Shown here: in pieces, positions 1-62,849 of the stretch
Position numbering within the stretch: the first letter of the stretch is position 1
Layout of the letters: each line of letters begins with the position of its first letter
Assembly: GCA_045661305.1 (NCBI GenBank)
Contig: JAZRFJ010000001.1
Location: 2,970-66,969, forward strand
DNA length: 64,000 nt
Source of the DNA: Clostridia bacterium
GTDB taxonomy: Bacteria; Bacillota; Clostridia; UMGS1840
Direction: 5' to 3'
Translations under genes and position numbers: made by a program
The notes under the pieces: model-generated
Told to the model about the DNA's origin: nothing
Seen by the model: only the letters and a program-made list of their open reading frames with translations
Databases searched by the model: none

Positions 1-1
1 C

Positions 2-652
2 GCAAACGGACTTCCCATTACAGTAAATGACCCGAATGTCGATATGAAGCTTGTGTACATAGATGATGTTGTAGCAGAATTTGCAAATGTTCTTGAGAAA
101 AAAGTGCATAAAAACGAAGAATTTTGTTATGTGCCGACAGTTCACGAAATAAAGCTTGGAAAAATAGTTGAACTCATAGAAGGCTTTAAAAAATCAAGAG
201 AAAATCTTTTAGTTCCTGACCAGAATGACGAATTTTCCAAAAAGCTTTATGCAACATATTTAAGCTATCTTCCAAAAGACAATTTTTCATATCCGCTTAA
301 AATGAATGTCGATGAGCGTGGCTCATTCACAGAATTTTTAAAAACTGATGAATACGGGCAGGTTTCGGTAAATGTTGCAAAACCAGGTATTGTAAAAGGA
401 AATCACTATCACAACACAAAAAATGAAAAGTTTCTTGTAGTTTCAGGGAAAGCTGCAATCCGTTTCAGAAAGCCCGATGAGAATGAGGTTATTGAATACT
501 TCGTTTCAGGTGACAAGCTTGAAGTAGTGGATATTCCTACTGGATATACTCATAATATTGAGAATATCGGTGAAAATGATTTAGTCACAATAATGTGGGC
601 AAATGAAAAATTTGATCCTGAAAATCCCGATACATATTTTCTTAAAGTGTAA
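2..652 (+). CDS. capF: CapF/FnlB-like UDP-sugar 4-reductase, C-terminal cupin half (5' end lies outside the window)
   Basis: The frame is open from nt 2. It carries the cupin signature ERGSFTEF..KGNHYHNTKNEKFLVVSG..GYTHNIEN typical of Cap5F/FnlB, and a CapG/FnlC-type epimerase follows directly. Confidence 0.6.
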   Translation, partial: ANGLPITVNDPNVDMKLVYIDDVVAEFANVLEKKVHKNEEFCYVPTVHEIKLGKIVELIEGFKKSRENLLVPDQNDEFSKKLYATYLSYLPKDNFSYPLKMNVDERGSFTEFLKTDEYGQVSVNVAKPGIVKGNHYHNTKNEKFLVVSGKAAIRFRKPDENEVIEYFVSGDKLEVVDIPTGYTHNIENIGENDLVTIMWANEKFDPENPDTYFLKV

Positions 653-679
653 AAGTGCAAAAAAGAAAGGAAGAAAAAA

Positions 680-1816
680 ATGTCAGATAAATTAAAGGTA
701 ATGACTATTATAGGCACAAGACCTGAGATAATAAGACTTAGTGAAGTAATAAAGTGCTGTGATAAGTATTTTAACCATGTTCTTGTTCACACAGGACAAA
801 ACTGGGACTATACTTTAAATCAGGTATTTTTTGATAATTTAAAATTAAGAGAGCCTGATTATTATTTAGACAGCGTAGGAAACCATCTTGGTGAAACAAT
901 GGGCAATATTATTGCAAAATCATATGAAGTTTTGGAAAAAGAAATGCCCGATGCACTTCTTATTTTAGGTGATACAAACTCTGCTTTATGTGCAATAAGT
1001 GCAAAAAGATTAAAAATTCCGATTTTCCATATGGAAGCAGGAAACAGATGTTGGGACTGGAATGTATCTGAAATGATTAACAGAAAAATTGTTGACCATA
1101 TTTCTGATATAAATTTACCTTACACCGAACATTCAAGACGTTATTTGCTTAGTGAGGGTATTGACGGAAAAACAATGTTTGTAACGGGTTCTCCTATGAG
1201 AGAAGTTATAAAGAAGAACATAGACGAAATAAACGCAAGTGACATTCTTAATAAAATGGGACTTGAGCCAAAGAAATATATTCTTGTTTCGGCTCATAGA
1301 GAAGAAAATATTGATAATGAAGAACACTTCCTTTCTCTTATGAACGCAATAAATGAAATTGCAGAAAAATACCAGATGCCTGTTATTTATTCAACTCACC
1401 CAAGAAGTATGAAATTTATTGAAAAAAGAAGCTTCAAATTTCATCCGCTTGTACAAAATCCAAAGCCTTTCGGATTTTTTGACTATAACAAGCTTCAACT
1501 TAACAGCTATTGCGTATTGTCTGATAGTGGAACACTTTCAGAAGAATCTGCAATGCTAAATTTCCCAGGCGTTCTTATCCGTACTTCAACAGAGCGTCCT
1601 GAAGTTTTAGATAAAGGAACTGTTGTTATCGGCGGTATAAAAGGAAAAGATGTAAAACAGGCTATGGACCTTGCCGTTTCGATGTATGAAAACAATGAAG
1701 AAGTTGTTATGGCAGAGGATTATAATGATACAAATGTTTCTGTCAAGGTCGTTAAGATTATTCAAAGCTATGCTAAAATAGTAAAATTAACAACATGGAA
1801 TAAATTTTCAGAATAA
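680..1816 (+). CDS. capG: UDP-N-acetylglucosamine 2-epimerase family, non-hydrolysing (CapG/FnlC-like)
   Basis: 378 aa. The N-terminus MTIIGTRPEIIRLS and the HTGQNWD and GDTNS motifs fit the epimerase_2 family. An AAAGGAAG RBS lies upstream. Confidence 0.7.
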   Translation: MSDKLKVMTIIGTRPEIIRLSEVIKCCDKYFNHVLVHTGQNWDYTLNQVFFDNLKLREPDYYLDSVGNHLGETMGNIIAKSYEVLEKEMPDALLILGDTNSALCAISAKRLKIPIFHMEAGNRCWDWNVSEMINRKIVDHISDINLPYTEHSRRYLLSEGIDGKTMFVTGSPMREVIKKNIDEINASDILNKMGLEPKKYILVSAHREENIDNEEHFLSLMNAINEIAEKYQMPVIYSTHPRSMKFIEKRSFKFHPLVQNPKPFGFFDYNKLQLNSYCVLSDSGTLSEESAMLNFPGVLIRTSTERPEVLDKGTVVIGGIKGKDVKQAMDLAVSMYENNEEVVMAEDYNDTNVSVKVVKIIQSYAKIVKLTTWNKFSE

Positions 1817-19323: not shown

Positions 19324-19468
19324 TATAAAATTCCTCCATTTTGCATTTATAACATCAATTTATTATACCACATATTTTCAAAAATGCAAGTGTTTTTTCA
19401 AAATTATCCATATTTTATTGAAATTTTTGGAATATTCACCACAACAGTTTAATAATTTCCAAAAATTA

Positions 19469-21772
19469 TTAAAGCTTCGCTCTTATAATCTTTCCGCTTG
19501 TTGTTTTTGGAAGTTCATCTTTAAATACAACAATTCTCGGATATTTATACGGAGCAGTATGCTCCTTAACATAATTCTGAATTTCTTTTTTAAGTTCTTC
19601 ACTCGGGTCAGTTCCTTTTGTAAGGACTATGCTTGCTTTAACTACCTGTCCTCTTATTTCATCAGGCTCGGCAGAAACTCCGCACTCTAAAACATACGGA
19701 AGCTCCATAATAACATTTTCAATCTCAAAAGGTCCGATACGATAGCCTGAAGATTTGATAACATCATCAATTCGTCCTACATACCAATAGTAACCGTCCT
19801 CGTCTTTCCACGCAACATCACCTGTATGATAATATCCGTCATGCCATACCTCGTCAGTTTTTTCCTTATCACCATAGTAGCCTGAGAACAATCCGCAAGG
19901 TGCACCGTCTTTAATATTAATACAAATTTCTCCTGTTTCACTTGTTTTAACCTGCTTTCCGTCTGCATTAAGAAGCTCAACCTTATAAACAGGAGCAGGT
20001 TTACCCATTGAACCGATTTTGTGAGGCTTTCCAACAAGATTACCAATAATCATTGTGCTTTCCGACTGTCCGAAGCCCTCTTTTATCTGTAATCCTGTTA
20101 CTTTCTCAAACTGCCTGTAAACTTCAGGATTCAATGCTTCTCCTGCTGTTGTCATATGCTTTACAGATGATAAATCATATTTTGAAATATCCTGTTTAAC
20201 CAGCATACGAAGCATAGTCGGAGGTGCACAGAAGGTTGTTATATTGTGTTTTGCAAACATAGGAAGAATTTCGGCCGCATCAAAACGGTCAAAATCATAA
20301 ACGAATGTTGCAGCTTCACATAACCATTGTCCGTAAAGCTTACCCCACATTGCTTTTGCCCAGCCTGTATCTGATATAGTAAAATGCAGTCCGTCGGGGT
20401 CTACATTGTGCCAGTATTTTGCAGTATGGAAATGTCCCAAAGGATATTTATGATTATGTGCTGCAATTTTAGGATAGCCTGATGTTCCTGATGTAAAGAA
20501 CATAAGCATCAAGTCATCACCGCACGCAGTATCCTCTGTTCTATCAAAATGAGAGCTGAAACGCTTGTATTCTTCGTCAAAATTTCTCCAGCCTTCTCTT
20601 TCTCCGCCCACTATCATTTTTGTTGTAAGCTGTGGACAGCTTTGGGCTGCTATATCAACCTGATGTGCAACATCGTCATCGCTTGTACAGATAATTGCAC
20701 TTATTCCTGCTGAATCAAAACGATATTTAAGGTCATGCTCCTGAAGCTGATTAACAGCAGGAATAGCAATAGCACCAAGCTTATTAAGACCGAGCATTGC
20801 AATCCAGAACTGATAATGACGCTTTAAAATAAGCATAACTCTGTCGCCCTTTTTAATCCCAAGAGAAGCGAAATAGTTTGCACACTGGCTTGAAAGCTTT
20901 CTCATATCTGTGAAAGTAAATCTTCTTTCCACATTATCTTTTGAAATATGAAGCATAGCAAGCTTGTCCGGTTCTCTTCTTGAAAGCTCATCAACAAGGT
21001 CGAAAGCAAAATTAAACTTATCTTCATTTTTGAATTTTATTGATGTCGGTGTTCCCTGTTCATCTTCTGTAACATCAATAAATTTATGGTATATTCTGTC
21101 TTTTGTGTCCGCACTTTTATGTACAGTACCTATAATCTGTTCAGTAGTAGCCATATCGGAAGCCATTTCCTCAACAGTATCATCATCAGCCCTGAGTACA
21201 AATGCATAAAATTTGCAGTCCTTTCCGTCTACTGCAATCATTCCGTGGGGGGTTTTACTGTTATAATAGATACTGTCACCAGGACCTAAAACTTCTTTAT
21301 GATTGCCAACCTGAACCATAAGATGTCCTTCGATTACTATATCACATTCCTGACCTTCGTGGGTTTTTAATTCAATGTCCTTATGTAACGCATCTTCACT
21401 GTAAACACATTCAACATAAAGAGGCTCAGCAACACGCTTTCTGAATGAAGAAGCAAGATTATAATAGGTCATTCCGTGTGCTTTTTCAATTCTTTGACCT
21501 TCTCCTCTTCTGGTAACGGTATATGATTTAAGCATAGGGCTTACACCCTCAACTATATCAGTAACATCAACACCGAGTGCAATCGCACACCGGTAGATAA
21601 ACGCAAAGCTCAAATCATGCTCGCCCTTTTCACAAGCCACATATTCTTCTTTTGTAACATCAGTAAGCTTTGCCATCGTTTCAACAGAAATTCCCATAAT
21701 TTCTCTTAATTCTTTGATTCTTTTGGCAATCTCCATTATTTTTAAATCCAAACCGATAAAGCCCTTATCCAT
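19469..21772 (-). CDS. fusion protein: XRE-type HTH + cupin + AMP-forming (medium-chain-type) acyl-CoA synthetase
   Basis: HTH (IKELREIMGISVETMAKLTDV), cupin (GPGDSIYYNSKTPHGM), and AMP-binding motifs FTSGTSGYPK, YHTGD, GRIDDVIKSSGYRIGPFEIE, PKTTSGKIIR. I set the start at ATG 21772 (MDKGF), which has an AAGGAGA RBS. The 19 upstream codons of the ORF-track call translate the arm of a structured element. Confidence 0.85.
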   Translation of the reverse strand: MDKGFIGLDLKIMEIAKRIKELREIMGISVETMAKLTDVTKEEYVACEKGEHDLSFAFIYRCAIALGVDVTDIVEGVSPMLKSYTVTRRGEGQRIEKAHGMTYYNLASSFRKRVAEPLYVECVYSEDALHKDIELKTHEGQECDIVIEGHLMVQVGNHKEVLGPGDSIYYNSKTPHGMIAVDGKDCKFYAFVLRADDDTVEEMASDMATTEQIIGTVHKSADTKDRIYHKFIDVTEDEQGTPTSIKFKNEDKFNFAFDLVDELSRREPDKLAMLHISKDNVERRFTFTDMRKLSSQCANYFASLGIKKGDRVMLILKRHYQFWIAMLGLNKLGAIAIPAVNQLQEHDLKYRFDSAGISAIICTSDDDVAHQVDIAAQSCPQLTTKMIVGGEREGWRNFDEEYKRFSSHFDRTEDTACGDDLMLMFFTSGTSGYPKIAAHNHKYPLGHFHTAKYWHNVDPDGLHFTISDTGWAKAMWGKLYGQWLCEAATFVYDFDRFDAAEILPMFAKHNITTFCAPPTMLRMLVKQDISKYDLSSVKHMTTAGEALNPEVYRQFEKVTGLQIKEGFGQSESTMIIGNLVGKPHKIGSMGKPAPVYKVELLNADGKQVKTSETGEICINIKDGAPCGLFSGYYGDKEKTDEVWHDGYYHTGDVAWKDEDGYYWYVGRIDDVIKSSGYRIGPFEIENVIMELPYVLECGVSAEPDEIRGQVVKASIVLTKGTDPSEELKKEIQNYVKEHTAPYKYPRIVVFKDELPKTTSGKIIRAKL

Positions 21773-21802
21773 TTTAAAATTCTCCTTTTTTAAAATATAC
21801 TC

Positions 21803-22080
21803 TAGCGTGACAGTAGTTATCCGAACCACGCCTGGAATGGCGTTATTTCGGCATTTTTTAACTTGTCGCTCTCGAAAGGCGACAGCCTTACTTCGTTCTC
21901 CGCGTCAAAAACTGCTCAAAATTCCATCCCTTTCAGGTTCAAAGAATTTTTTGCAAACTATTTTTATGTCAATACAAGAAAAAAACGCAAGCAATACTGT
22001 TGTATTGTCAAGGCTTTTGACGCAGTAGTGACAAAAAAGAGAAAGCAAAAAACGAGGTTCGGATATCTTCTGTCACGCTA
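21803..22080 (-). ncRNA. unclassified 278-nt hairpin-bounded structured leader element, copy 1 (homologous to 51287-51563)
   Basis: The 25-nt terminal arms (22080-22056 and 21827-21803) are 23/25 complementary. The element is collinear with the copy upstream of hisS, and internal hairpins sit at matching positions. Confidence 0.55.
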
Positions 22081-22085
22081 CACAT

Positions 22086-22402
22086 AAAAAAACCCGCCTC
22101 AAAGAGTTTTTCAATGTCTTTGAGACGAGCTTATAATCAAAAATCAAAAATTATAATACCCGCGGTACCACTCAAATTGCACTTTTTAAAAAAAGCACCA
22201 CTTTCAGACTCTTTCAAGCCCTATGCACTAACGCAGCCTACGCGAAAAGGTTCTACTTGCTTTTATAAAAAATAAAAAAGCTTTCTTCCTTTCAACTCAG
22301 GAGCTACAAACATCGGTATTCACTTTTTTGGCTCGCACCAACCGCCAATTCTCTCAAAAGCTATCTCCGAAGCCCTCTCCGTCAAAGTTTTTAAATTTTT
22401 AC
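22086..22402 (-). promoter_or_regulatory. T-box riboswitch leader (tRNA-sensing transcription attenuator)
   Basis: AG box GAGAGA (22350-22355), distal loop GGUUGGUGCGA (22333-22343) and T-box sequence AAUUUGAGUGGUACCGCG (22161-22178). An 11-bp terminator with a U7 run lies at 22086-22127, and its 5' strand (CUCAAA) can alternatively pair with the T-box UUUGAG. Confidence 0.85.
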
Positions 22403-22408
22403 GCGACT

Positions 22409-22437
22409 ATATTAACATATTTTTTCTGTTTTGTCAA
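22409..22437 (-). promoter_or_regulatory. sigma-A promoter of the T-box leader
   Basis: On the - strand, TTGACA, a 17-nt spacer, then TAATAT. Confidence 0.7.
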
Positions 22438-62518: not shown

Positions 62519-62547
62519 TTGACAAAATGAATTTTTTGTGTTAAAAT
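62519..62547 (+). promoter_or_regulatory. sigma-A promoter of rplJ-rplL
   Basis: TTGACA, a 17-nt spacer, then TAAAAT. Confidence 0.7.
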
Positions 62548-62552
62548 AACTC

Positions 62553-62849
62553 TGTTGTTCCTAAGACAATAGGTGTCAGGTGGGATTCAGGGAGATTTGA
62601 AAGGCATTTCGTATGCTGATTAAGTTGATTGGAAATCTCGTATCTTCTGACTTAAAGTTTCGCCTATCGAGGATAATATAAAAATTGACATTATTTTAGA
62701 TTTTTATATGCTACCCTCGTTTGTCTTGCGGGGGTAGCGTTTTATTGTGTGTTAACACAACAAGGTTCTCCGAAATTCTCGAATTTTAATTCGTTAGAAT
62801 TTCGTGAGGTTCTTATTTTACTATAAATTAAATGGAGGTGTAAAGGTTT
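62553..62849 (+). promoter_or_regulatory. ribosomal protein L10 leader (autoregulatory attenuator)
   Basis: A long structured leader sits between the promoter and rplJ. The 5' part CCUAAGACAAUAGGUG resembles the L10(L12)4 binding mimic. An intrinsic terminator gctaccc/ggggtagc with a U-tract lies at 62710-62746. Confidence 0.6.

What the first reader, a model, noticed from the sequence alone, without database searches (positions are those of the whole stretch)
22086..22437. T-box riboswitch controlling an atypical target (HTH-cupin-acyl-CoA synthetase) in tandem with the unknown element
The leader has a consensus promoter, Stem I features (AG box, distal loop GGUUGGUGCGA), the T-box sequence AAUUUGAGUGGUACCGCG and an 11-bp terminator with U7. 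Known T-box regulons are aminoacyl-tRNA synthetases, amino-acid biosynthesis genes and transporters. Here the only downstream gene before the next terminator is an AMP-forming acyl-CoA synthetase fused to a DNA-binding/cupin module. The antiterminator bulge reads UGGU, which predicts a tRNA with discriminator A73. I could not fix the specifier by eye. The 3' side of the specifier region reads GUGAAUACCGAUG (22323-22311), giving candidates UAC (Tyr), ACC (Thr) and AUA (Ile). AAU (Asn) is also possible but disfavoured if tRNA-Asn has G73. One hypothesis (inference) is that the ligase activates a carboxylic-acid precursor for amino-acid salvage by reductive carboxylation. That physiology is well known in rumen and gut anaerobes, for example arylacetates to aromatic amino acids and 2-methylbutyrate to Ile. 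It would make uncharged-tRNA control logical. The antiterminator loop also carries an unusual extra hairpin (UUAUAAU..AUUAUAA, 22133-22158).
Basis: partly seen in the sequence, partly recalled or inferred. Interest (0 to 1): 0.65.

Follow-up and report, generated by a model that had tools for sequence, protein, structure and literature searches.

The report
Valine T-box controlling a branched-acid CoA ligase
A standard tRNA-sensing T-box switch, specific for valine, controls an enzyme that most likely activates isobutyrate so the cell can rebuild valine from it. Comparison with hundreds of related gut bacteria suggests which genes carry out this long-known salvage route.

Summary
The T-box is real. 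It matches RF00230 over its full length (79.4 bits, E 2e-17; below Rfam's cut-off of 93, which about half of the orthologous leaders tested pass). Promoter, Stem I, antiterminator and terminator are all present.

It is invariant in 74 parsable orthologous leaders and is framed by a Stem I with strong covariation.

The target is a 767-aa fusion of an HTH-like domain, a cupin and an acyl-CoA synthetase. Its nearest characterised relatives, MacsMa and MbcS, activate 2-methylbutyrate and isobutyrate.

In 51 of 80 related genomes the Val-T-box gene heads a cluster encoding a P-loop protein, a four-subunit 2-oxoacid:ferredoxin oxidoreductase (VOR) and IlvE. About 40 of them also carry a tandem paralogue behind an Ile (AUC) T-box.

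The best reading is therefore that valine starvation induces isobutyrate-CoA ligase, and reductive carboxylation then yields valine. The enzyme chemistry is inferred, not shown.

The "unknown element in tandem" is a 278-bp MITE-like insertion that is absent from orthologues 96% and 93% identical. The N-terminal module resembles both HTH-cupin regulators and HppE-type iron enzymes, so DNA binding is unproven.

Overall this is a known kind of riboswitch with a new and informative target.

The parts
22409..22437 (-). Sigma-70-type promoter: TTGACA (22437-22432), 17-nt spacer, TAATAT (22414-22409), with TG before the -10
   Evidence: 10 of 12 matches, the best site in the 4.5 kb scanned. It is conserved in L081 and L082.
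22118..22394 (-). T-box leader, match to RF00230
   Evidence: 79.4 bits, E 1.9e-17, model positions 1-219. Orthologous leaders score 86-102 bits.
22294..22388 (-). Stem I: K-turn (UGA / UGAG), helix GGAG/CUCC, specifier loop, AG bulge AGAGA (22354-22350), distal loop GGUUGGUGCGA (22343-22333)
   Evidence: Alignment A2 of 72 sequences. 93% of cells pair against 30-44% when partners are slid, and 14 of 17 pairs show compensatory changes.
22305..22307 (-). Specifier codon GUA (Val), followed by the conserved purine G at 22304 and the 3' strand CUCC of the helix at 22303-22300
   Evidence: Invariant in every parsable leader of the orthologue type (74, window included) and in all 72 distinct Stem I sequences of alignment A2. 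The neighbouring triplet UGU is not invariant (GGU in L022 and L032).
22161..22178 (-). T-box sequence AAUUUGAGUGGUACCGCG. The bulge UGGU (22170-22167) pairs with the tRNA 3' end NCCA, and its U predicts discriminator A73.
   Evidence: The window's tRNA-Val(CAC) ends GUC-A-CCA.
22119..22176 (-). Antiterminator helix with the 7-nt bulge UGGUACC and a clade-specific 8-bp extension hairpin in its loop
   Evidence: second fold. The loop length varies among orthologues.
22086..22132 (-). Intrinsic terminator. Its 5' strand overlaps the 3' strand of the antiterminator, and it is followed by U7.
   Evidence: -20.5 kcal/mol, z -6.1, 0 of 200 shuffles fold as well.
21803..22080 (.). MITE-like insertion: 274 bp plus TA on each side, with 28-nt terminal inverted repeats. 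It lies in the 5' UTR between the terminator and the RBS. It is not part of the riboswitch.
   Evidence: Absent from L081 (96% identical protein) and L082 (93%), whose empty site reads ATGTA-TA-GAGTT. Inverted repeats. Folds at z -7.3. No sense-strand promoter-like site inside it.
21770..21785 (-). Ribosome-binding site GGAG (21785-21782) and start codon ATG (21772-21770)
   Evidence: The N-terminus aligns with orthologues.
19469..21772 (-). Regulated gene, 767 aa: HTH_3 (aa 17-77), Cupin_2 (133-190), AMP-binding (264-633), AMP-binding_C (683-761)
   Evidence: Best solved relative is 3ETC/MacsMa at 634 bits. All adenylation motifs are intact.

Best explanation
This is a transcription-attenuating T-box riboswitch specific for tRNA-Val.

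Mechanism of the switch. Transcription starts at the promoter at 22437-22409. When uncharged tRNA-Val (anticodon UAC, discriminator A73) pairs with the GUA specifier in Stem I and with the UGGU bulge, the antiterminator is stabilised and RNA polymerase reads through the terminator at 22132-22086. Otherwise transcription stops there. Read-through transcripts cross a recently inserted 278-bp MITE-like element and express a single gene.

What the gene does. The gene encodes a fusion of an HTH-like domain, a cupin and an AMP-forming acyl-CoA synthetase. The ligase domain most likely converts isobutyrate to isobutyryl-CoA. A 2-oxoisovalerate:ferredoxin oxidoreductase (VOR) would then reductively carboxylate that to 2-oxoisovalerate, and IlvE would transaminate it to valine. 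Valine starvation would thus switch on valine salvage from a fermentation acid that is abundant in the gut.

What is shown and what is inferred.
- Shown by sequence and comparison: the identity of the T-box, its architecture, the Val specifier, the conserved link between T-box and gene, the Val/Ile paralogue pairing, and co-location with VOR and ilvE in relatives.
- Inferred: the ligase substrate, the direction of flux, actual antitermination by tRNA-Val, and any role of the N-terminal module.
For: The T-box itself:
- Full-length RF00230 match, E 1.9e-17; orthologues score up to 102 bits.
- Stem I covariation: 93% of cells paired against 30-44% when slid, 14 of 17 pairs compensatory, 0 of 500 shuffles reach the observed value.
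- Mutually exclusive antiterminator and terminator.

The specifier:
- GUA followed by a purine is invariant in all 74 parsed leaders of the orthologue type and in all 72 distinct Stem I sequences.
- UGGU predicts A73, and the window's tRNA-Val has A73.

Conservation:
- 79 of 80 species-level loci have the T-box core on the gene's strand upstream of the gene, about 63-200 nt before a long ORF's start codon.

Paralogue logic:
- About 40 of the 80 loci carry a tandem paralogue whose own T-box reads AUC (Ile): 35 leaders parsed, 39 distinct sequences.
- 18 type-specific residues track the specifier, also in distant members. L084a has AUC and the Ile-type pattern; the Solobacterium member L087 has GUC and the Val-type pattern.

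Enzyme family:
- The best NCBIfam hit is MbcS. The best solved relative by far is MacsMa/3ETC.
- MbcS is selective for 2-methylbutyrate and isobutyrate (PMC10026030). MacsMa prefers 2-methylbutyrate (PMC10455477).
- MacsMa carries the Ile-type residue at 3 of 6 ligase signature positions and the Val-type residue at none.

Pathway context:
- In 51 of 80 loci the Val-T-box gene is followed, usually within about 20 nt, by a P-loop gene, a 2x[4Fe-4S] delta subunit, a VorB-type alpha subunit (537 bits against a cut-off of 399), beta and gamma subunits, and IlvE (448 bits against 307).
- Leu (CUC) T-boxes in front of a LeuA-like gene sit next to the cluster.
Against: - The window copy scores below Rfam's gathering threshold (79.4 against 93).
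- The specifier loop lacks the canonical GAA/AGUA S-turn consensus.
- The window's 64 kb contains no VOR or BCAT gene. In the window's own clade (L001-L021, L081, L082) the gene stands alone, so the downstream steps are unverified for this organism.
- The cognate tRNA-Val(UAC) is not in the window.
- The ligase scores far below the MbcS equivalog cut-off (445 against 850), so its substrate cannot be transferred by homology.
- Some family members (L085, L086) have no T-box.
- The MITE could alter expression.
- No experiment exists for any member of this fused family in the searchable literature.
Confidence: 0.75

Rival explanations
1. Same Val T-box, but the ligase supplies isobutyryl-CoA as a primer for iso-branched membrane fatty acids, as MbcS does in S. 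aureus. When valine, the normal primer precursor, is scarce, the cell would scavenge isobutyrate for lipids rather than for valine.
For: MbcS, the best named family hit, has exactly this role (PMC10026030). In the window's clade the gene is not next to VOR or ilvE.
Against: In 51 of 80 relatives the gene is co-operonic with VOR and IlvE. Co-inducing those under Val starvation makes sense only in the biosynthetic direction. Leu T-box/leuA neighbours also point to amino-acid supply. The two roles are not mutually exclusive.
Confidence: 0.12
2. The protein is mainly a transcription factor (a 'trigger enzyme'). The T-box controls the level of a DNA-binding HTH-cupin regulator, whose ligase domain or cupin senses the acid or the amino acid and which then controls VOR/ilvE or other genes in trans. 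This would be analogous to T-box control of the anti-TRAP regulator in B. subtilis.
For: - HTH_3 and Cupin_2 pass Pfam's thresholds, and the module is present in every family member listed.
- 12 of the 18 type-specific residues lie in this module, clustered at cupin residues 95-118.
- In Lachnospiraceae locus L086 the T-box-less paralogues are transcribed divergently from the P-loop-ferredoxin-VOR operon, which is a regulator/target layout.
- The best structural hit is the HTH_3 regulator 1Y9Q.
Against: - The ligase domain keeps every catalytic motif and is about 63% identical to unfused ligases, so it is an enzyme too.
- The module matches HppE, HEPD and MPnS equally well. As I recall it, the helical domain of those enzymes does not bind DNA.
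- The invariant H138/E142/H176 set looks like a metal site.
- No operator was identified.
- This reading complements the best explanation rather than excluding it.
Confidence: 0.2
3. The T-box in this window is a relic. The MITE insertion between the terminator and the RBS provides its own promoter or blocks read-through, so the ligase is no longer under tRNA control in this strain.
For: A 278-bp insertion sits 8 nt after the U-tract. It contains two TTGACA hexamers and folds very stably (z -7.3).
Against: - The T-box is nearly identical to those of the uninterrupted orthologues L081 and L082, with all functional motifs intact.
- The promoter scan found no site of at least 9 of 12 matches on the sense strand inside the element, and no sense-strand terminator.
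- The RBS and start codon are untouched.
Confidence: 0.07
4. One reading: the specifier is UAC (Tyr), ACC (Thr), AUA (Ile) or AAU (Asn) in GUGAAUACCGAUG, and the ligase activates an arylacetate or 2-methylbutyrate.
For: The loop AGAUA/GAAUA at 22365-22361 / 22320-22316 looks superficially like an S-turn followed by UAC.
Against: - That loop lies only about 11 base-pair layers below the distal loop, and its sequence is not conserved across orthologues.
- CCGA pairs with UCGG in a helix that covaries.
- The invariant triplet at the canonical position is GUA.
- The Ile codon belongs to the paralogue's T-box.
Confidence: 0.01

Closest known systems
Transcriptional T-box leaders of Firmicutes (Rfam RF00230), for example Val-specific valS leaders and the Leu-specific leader of the B. 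subtilis ilv-leu biosynthesis operon (examples from my own knowledge)
   Same: Stem I with K-turn, specifier loop, AG bulge and distal loop; the UGGN bulge; the antiterminator/terminator switch; a codon followed by a purine; control of a gene that raises supply of the cognate amino acid.
   Different: - The target is an acyl-CoA synthetase fusion, and in relatives a ligase-VOR-IlvE salvage operon. It is not an aaRS, a classical ilv/leu gene or a transporter.
- The 3' side of the specifier loop reads UUU-GUA-G with no GAA S-turn consensus.
- The antiterminator loop is longer.
- The window copy scores below Rfam's threshold.
MbcS, methylbutyryl-CoA synthetase of Staphylococcus aureus (PMC10026030)
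   Same: Best NCBIfam match for the ligase domain. An AMP-forming short-chain ligase selective for isobutyrate and 2-methylbutyrate.
   Different: The score is only 445 bits against an equivalog cut-off of 850. MbcS has no HTH-cupin extension, feeds fatty-acid synthesis, and the MbcS paper I read (abstract and outline) does not describe it as T-box-controlled.
MacsMa, medium-chain acyl-CoA synthetase of Methanosarcina acetivorans (PDB 3ETC)
   Same: Closest solved relative: 634 bits over the whole ligase domain, about 60% identical in the printed alignment (my estimate, the tool gives no figure). It prefers branched 2-methylbutyrate (PMC10455477). It shares the Ile-type residues at three signature positions.
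   Different: Archaeal, unfused, and of unknown physiological role. The Val-type protein differs from it at all six signature positions.
Reductive carboxylation of branched-chain acids to branched-chain amino acids in rumen and gut anaerobes (classical physiology; my own knowledge, mentioned in PMC7356843)
   Same: The predicted pathway: acid to acyl-CoA to 2-oxoacid (via a ferredoxin-dependent oxidoreductase) to amino acid.
   Different: In the literature I could search, the activating enzyme and its regulation were not assigned to genes. Here a specific gene family and its tRNA-dependent control are proposed.
Two-domain helical + cupin proteins: the HTH_3 regulator 1Y9Q, and the non-haem-iron enzymes HppE, HEPD and MPnS
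   Same: The N-terminal 195 residues have the same two-domain fold (Foldseek E about 1e-14). An invariant His/Glu/His set is present in the cupin.
   Different: Only about 21% identity and low TM-scores (0.31-0.47, different domain orientation). Here the module is fused to a ligase. Neither DNA binding nor metal binding has been tested.

Membership tests
T-box leader (RF00230) | Significant full-length match to the family covariance model | tested here: met
   79.4 bits, E 1.9e-17, model positions 1-219. This is below the curated gathering score of 93, so the default scan misses it. The loss comes from long insertions. Orthologous leaders score 86-102 bits, and 6 of the 11 scored reach at least 93.
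T-box leader (RF00230) | Stem I with K-turn, specifier loop, AG bulge and distal loop, supported by covariation | tested here: met
   Alignment A2. 93.1% of cells paired against 30-44% when slid; 14 of 17 pairs with compensatory change; AGAGA and GGUG invariant.
T-box leader (RF00230) | Specifier triplet on the 3' side of the specifier loop, followed by a purine and the lower helix | tested here: met
   GUA followed by G or A is invariant in all parsed orthologue-type leaders. The paralogue has AUC at the same position.
T-box leader (RF00230) | Conserved T-box sequence forming an antiterminator with a UGGN bulge, mutually exclusive with a terminator | tested here: met
   AAUUUGAGUGGUACCGCG at 22178-22161. 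Folds: bulge UGGUACC; terminator -20.5 kcal/mol, z -6.1.
T-box leader (RF00230) | Loop-E/S-turn consensus (AGUA...GAA) in the specifier loop. This is common in the family but is not what defines it. | tested here: not met
   The loop reads AGGG on the 5' side and UUUGUAG on the 3' side. The Solobacterium orthologue keeps GAA. I treat this as a clade variant.
T-box leader (RF00230) | Read-through induced by uncharged cognate tRNA | not testable with these tools
   Needs an in vitro antitermination assay or in vivo starvation assays.
MbcS/Macs-type branched short-chain acyl-CoA synthetases | AMP-binding and AMP-binding_C domains with intact adenylation motifs and the catalytic Lys | tested here: met
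   Pfam 214.5 and 75.8 bits. TSGTSGYPK, GFGQSES, YHTGD, GRIDDVIK and PKTTSGK are all present.
MbcS/Macs-type branched short-chain acyl-CoA synthetases | Reaches the MbcS equivalog cut-off | tested here: not met
   444.6 bits against a cut-off of 850. It is a relative, not an MbcS equivalog.
MbcS/Macs-type branched short-chain acyl-CoA synthetases | Selective activation of isobutyrate or 2-methylbutyrate | not testable with these tools
   Inferred from the Val/Ile specifiers, the A/G and M/L differences between the two types, and the match of MacsMa to the Ile-type.
XRE-HTH + cupin transcription regulators | HTH_3 and Cupin_2 domains in tandem | tested here: met
   HTH_3 25.8 bits (cut-off 23), Cupin_2 46 bits (cut-off 27.2). 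Model pLDDT 80.7. 1Y9Q is the top hit.
XRE-HTH + cupin transcription regulators | Sequence-specific DNA binding | not testable with these tools
   HppE, HEPD and MPnS share the fold and match about as well as the regulator. From my own knowledge they are not DNA-binding proteins.
MITE (for the 21803-22080 element) | Terminal inverted repeats, a target-site duplication, and an empty site in orthologues | tested here: met
   28-nt inverted repeats, 89% complementary. TA on both sides, with the empty site ATGTA-TA-GAGTT in L081.
MITE (for the 21803-22080 element) | Multiple copies in a genome | tested here: not met
   One copy in the 64-kb window. No exact match to the terminal repeat in the metagenome collection. 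The rest of the genome is not available.

The most novel reading that the evidence does not exclude
The fused protein is a two-layer controller of branched-chain amino-acid salvage. The T-box reports demand (uncharged tRNA-Val or tRNA-Ile). The type-specific HTH-like/cupin module, which has a conserved His/Glu/His site, senses supply or product (the acid, the 2-oxoacid or the amino acid). It then either regulates transcription of VOR/ilvE or gates the ligase allosterically. That would make it a new class of 'trigger enzyme', present in at least 588 species-level genomes of uncultured gut and rumen Clostridia. It would also explain their likely dependence on isobutyrate and 2-methylbutyrate.
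Probability: 0.3. Interest if true: 0.75.

Novelty: new member of a known kind. Interest (0 to 1): 0.6.

Why it matters
The riboswitch itself is ordinary. Its specifier, however, works as a built-in label for an uncharacterised protein family with thousands of members.

- Val-labelled and Ile-labelled paralogues sit in front of a VOR-IlvE cluster. Together they give a gene-level model for making valine and isoleucine (and, via LeuA, leucine) from isobutyrate and 2-methylbutyrate. That physiology has been known in rumen bacteria for decades, but the papers I could search do not tie it to genes or to regulation.
- The model makes the pathway directly testable through enzyme assays, isotope labelling and antitermination assays.
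- It suggests a cultivation aid, branched-acid supplementation, for many uncultured gut Clostridia.
- It extends the known T-box regulon to acyl-CoA ligases and ferredoxin oxidoreductases.
- It shows that T-boxes of this clade can fall below Rfam's threshold, so default annotation may miss some of them, as it missed this one.

Tried and rejected
- The Rfam scan at gathering threshold missed the T-box. The permissive scan was needed.
- The single-sequence MFE fold of Stem I gave a non-canonical register and z -0.8, so it was not informative.
- RNAalifold on the MAFFT alignment recovered only the distal helix. The canonical structure had to be supplied explicitly.
- UGU (Cys) and UUG (Leu), which overlap GUA, were rejected. 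Only GUA is invariant, and Cys would need UGGA in the bulge, since bacterial tRNA-Cys has U73 (my own knowledge).
- CUU (Leu) in the Solobacterium leader was rejected because that protein has the Val-type signature.
- A Leu-type (isovalerate) ligase with its own T-box was looked for and not found. Instead, Leu T-boxes precede a LeuA-like gene.
- The 'unknown element' was tested as a structured-RNA partner. It has no Rfam match and is absent from close orthologues, so that idea was rejected in favour of a MITE.
- The search for more MITE copies found one in the window and none in the metagenome scan.
- Literature: nine searches found no report of a T-box on an acyl-CoA synthetase or VOR. Vitreschak 2008, Gutierrez-Preciado 2009 and Shah 2009 are not held, so prior mention there cannot be excluded. 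Wels 2008 never mentions CoA, acyl or ferredoxin.
- No operator for the HTH domain was identified.
Full report

Yes. On the minus strand, a near-consensus promoter (TTGACA-17-TAATAT with an upstream TG, 22437-22409) is the best promoter-like site in the 4.5 kb scanned.

A default Rfam scan of the window reports no T-box. A permissive scan of the leader gives a full-length RF00230 match at 22394-22118: model positions 1-219, 79.4 bits, E 1.9e-17, against a gathering score of 93. The shortfall comes from three long insertions relative to the model. Orthologous leaders score 86-102 bits, and 6 of the 11 scored pass the threshold.

- AG bulge AGAGA at 22354-22350
- distal loop GGUUGGUGCGA at 22343-22333
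- T-box sequence AAUUUGAGUGGUACCGCG at 22178-22161

The 3' part folds either as an antiterminator with the 7-nt bulge UGGUACC, or as a strong terminator (-20.5 kcal/mol, z -6.1) followed by U7. The extra hairpin in the antiterminator loop is real. It is simply a clade-specific extension of the upper helix, of variable length. The T-box core occurs only once in the 64 kb.

**2. What does it regulate?**

The start codon is at 21772. The ORF 19469-21772 encodes 767 aa: HTH_3 (aa 17-77), Cupin_2 (133-190), AMP-binding (264-633) and AMP-binding_C (683-761). Upstream lie tsaE and tsaB; downstream lie tig, clpP and clpX. A weak A/U-rich hairpin follows the gene, and tig has its own extended -10 promoter.

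**3. The specifier**

The fusion protein is very common: 8000 hits in the capped search and at least 588 species-level genomes, all of them uncultured gut or rumen Clostridia. In 79 of the 80 loci fetched, the T-box core TGGTACCGCG lies on the gene's strand upstream of the gene, about 63-200 nt before a long ORF's start codon. The link between T-box and gene is therefore conserved across the family.

I parsed Stem I from its K-turn (UGA...GAAG / CUUC.GAG). Every parsable leader of the orthologue type, 74 including the window, has GUA followed by a purine immediately 5' of the lower helix. In an alignment of 72 distinct Stem I sequences, GUA, AGAGA, GGUG and the K-turn GA are invariant.

The canonical architecture, tested explicitly, holds well:
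- 93.1% of cells form standard pairs, against 30-44% when partners are slid.
- 14 of 17 pairs show compensatory changes.
- None of 500 shuffles reaches the observed covariation.

In the window the codon is at 22307-22305, the purine G at 22304, and the helix strand CUCC at 22303-22300.

It is too close to the distal loop to be the specifier loop, and it is not conserved. The overlapping triplet UGU is not invariant (GGU in L022 and L032), and Cys would require UGGA. The bulge UGGU predicts A73, and the window's tRNA-Val(CAC) ends GUC-A-CCA. The cognate tRNA-Val(UAC) is not in the window.

**4. Paralogue logic**

About 40 of the 80 loci carry a second, tandem paralogue of about 755 aa, 65-68% identical, directly upstream and with its own T-box. 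In every parsed case that T-box reads AUC (Ile): 35 leaders, 39 distinct sequences.

Eighteen positions are at least 90% conserved within each type but differ between the two types:
- Twelve lie in the HTH-cupin module, clustered at cupin residues 95-118.
- Six lie in the ligase: N330H, A472G, M475L, A487G, M574L and G577A (Val-type residue first). The last two flank the A5 motif GFGQSES.
- The Ile-type has Gly where the Val-type has Ala at two positions. That is as expected if its substrate is one carbon larger.

The signature tracks the specifier in distant members fetched independently:
- L084a has an AUC leader and the Ile-type signature.
- The Solobacterium protein L087 has a leader reading GAACUU-GUC-A-CUCC and the Val-type signature. 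This supports GUC (Val) rather than CUU (Leu).

**5. What the enzyme is related to**

The best NCBIfam model is MbcS (445 bits, far below its equivalog cut-off of 850), followed by acetate-CoA ligase. The best solved relative by a wide margin is 3ETC, at 634 bits against 351 for the next.

- 3ETC is MacsMa of Methanosarcina acetivorans, whose preferred substrate is 2-methylbutyrate (PMC10455477).
- MbcS selectively activates 2-methylbutyrate and isobutyrate (PMC10026030).
- In the residue-by-residue alignment, MacsMa has the Ile-type residue at 330 (H), 472 (G) and 577 (A), and the Val-type residue at none of the six positions. All adenylation motifs and the catalytic Lys are intact.

**6. Pathway context**

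In 51 of the 80 loci, the Val-T-box gene is followed, usually within about 20 nt, by this gene set:
- a MinD/ParA-like P-loop protein
- a 68-aa 2x[4Fe-4S] protein (the delta subunit)
- a VorB-type 2-oxoacid:ferredoxin oxidoreductase alpha subunit (537 bits, cut-off 399)
- beta and gamma subunits
- IlvE (448 bits, cut-off 307)

That is the complete route from acid to acyl-CoA to 2-oxoacid to amino acid. In L064, L077 and L034, a Leu (CUC) T-box in front of a LeuA-like gene sits next to the cluster. This fits leucine being drawn from the same 2-oxoisovalerate, and would explain why I found no Leu-type ligase.

In the window's own clade (L001-L021, L081, L082) the gene stands alone, and the window has no VOR or BCAT. 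For this organism the downstream steps are therefore inferred.

Not all family members have T-boxes. L085 and the Lachnospiraceae pair L086a/b (one Ile-type, one Val-type) lack them. In L086 the pair is transcribed divergently from the P-loop-ferredoxin-VOR operon.

**7. The 'unknown element'**

I aligned the window's tsaB-to-gene spacer with those of orthologues whose proteins are 96% (L081) and 93% (L082) identical. The T-box is nearly identical in all three, but 278 bp (21803-22080) are present only in the window.

- The element has 28-nt terminal inverted repeats.
- It is flanked by TA on both sides, where the empty site reads ATGTA-TA-GAGTT.
- It folds very stably because of the repeats (z -7.3).
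- It has no Rfam match.
- It contains no sense-strand promoter-like or terminator-like site by the scan.

It is a MITE-like insertion in the 5' UTR, not a partner riboswitch. I found only one copy in the window and no exact match to its terminal repeat in the metagenome collection, so multi-copy status is unproven.

**8. The N-terminal module**

A model built on a 41-sequence alignment is confident: pLDDT 80.7, with the cupin core above 90 and a disordered linker at residues 197-223. Foldseek against the PDB gives the HTH_3 regulator 1Y9Q first (E 1.3e-14). The non-haem-iron enzymes HppE, HEPD, MPnS and Psf4 follow at almost the same significance. They share the helical-plus-cupin architecture, but from my own knowledge they do not bind DNA.

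H138, E142 and H176 are invariant in the family. From memory, the HppE iron ligands form a similar His/Glu/His triad. So the module could be a regulator, a metabolite or metal sensor, or a catalytic domain. Its type-specific residues suggest that it recognises a Val/Ile-specific small molecule.

**9. Mechanism, rivals and novelty**

The best-supported model is as follows. Uncharged tRNA-Val stabilises the antiterminator. The ligase is then made and activates isobutyrate. VOR and IlvE convert isobutyryl-CoA to valine.

The rivals, each with my rough confidence:
- A lipid-primer role like that of MbcS (about 0.12). Co-operonic VOR and IlvE in relatives argue against it.
- A mainly regulatory 'trigger enzyme' role (about 0.2). 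This is compatible with the main model.
- Decoupling of the switch by the MITE (about 0.07).

In the literature I could search there is no report of a T-box on an acyl-CoA synthetase or on VOR. Key subscription papers are not held.

Verdict: this is a genuine T-box of the known kind with a new and informative target. Its interest lies in the functional assignment it gives to a very large uncharacterised protein family and to a classical but genetically unassigned salvage pathway.

Noticed in passing
window 21803-22080: A 278-bp MITE-like insertion with 28-nt terminal inverted repeats and flanking TA. It sits between the T-box terminator and the RBS and is absent from orthologues 96% and 93% identical. 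There is one copy in the window and no exact match to its terminal repeat in the metagenome scan.
   Followed up: yes
L022-L080, e.g. L041:1048-3635: A tandem upstream paralogue of the fusion protein (about 755 aa) with its own T-box. That T-box reads AUC (Ile) in every parsed case.
   Followed up: yes
L041:6290-10274 and 50 other loci: A conserved cluster directly after the Val-T-box gene: a MinD/ParA-like P-loop protein, a 2x[4Fe-4S] delta subunit, VOR alpha/beta/gamma subunits and IlvE. The role of the P-loop protein is unknown; it may be an Fe-S maturation factor.
   Followed up: partly
L064:~1-1100 (reverse strand), L077:~1-1100 (reverse strand), L034:9590-10271: Leu-specific (CUC) T-boxes in front of a LeuA-like gene, adjacent to the ligase-VOR cluster. 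This suggests leucine is drawn from the same 2-oxoisovalerate pool.
   Followed up: partly
L083:3020-5296, L084:5001-7268: A third type of the fusion protein (the P0124 group, 43-47% identical to the window protein) with its own signature residues. It has no T-box of its own and sits after an Ile-type gene. In L083 it is followed by a class I/II aminotransferase. Its substrate is unknown.
   Followed up: partly
L086:1-7268; L085:5001-7283: Family members without any T-box. In the Lachnospiraceae locus L086, an Ile-type plus Val-type pair is transcribed divergently from a P-loop-ferredoxin-VOR operon, which is a regulator/target-like layout.
   Followed up: partly
window 22304-22310 and 22373-22376; alignment A2 columns 13-16 and 87-93: The specifier loop of this T-box clade lacks the usual AGUA/GAA S-turn consensus. 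It reads AGGG on the 5' side and UUU-GUA-G on the 3' side. The Solobacterium orthologue (L087) keeps GAA.
   Followed up: partly
window 21203-21376 (cupin, aa 133-190): H138, G140, E142, D144 and H176 are invariant across 41 diverse family members. This looks like a 2-His-1-carboxylate metal site, and the fold matches HppE, HEPD and MPnS as well as it matches the HTH_3 regulator.
   Followed up: partly
window 62542-62754 (+): A ribosomal protein L10 leader (RF00557, 56.5 bits) with a 71-nt insertion in its first hairpin.
   Followed up: no
window 19324-19400 (-): tig has its own strong extended -10 promoter (TTGCAT-17-TGgTATAAT). It is therefore not co-regulated with the ligase gene, even though they are adjacent on the same strand.
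   Followed up: partly
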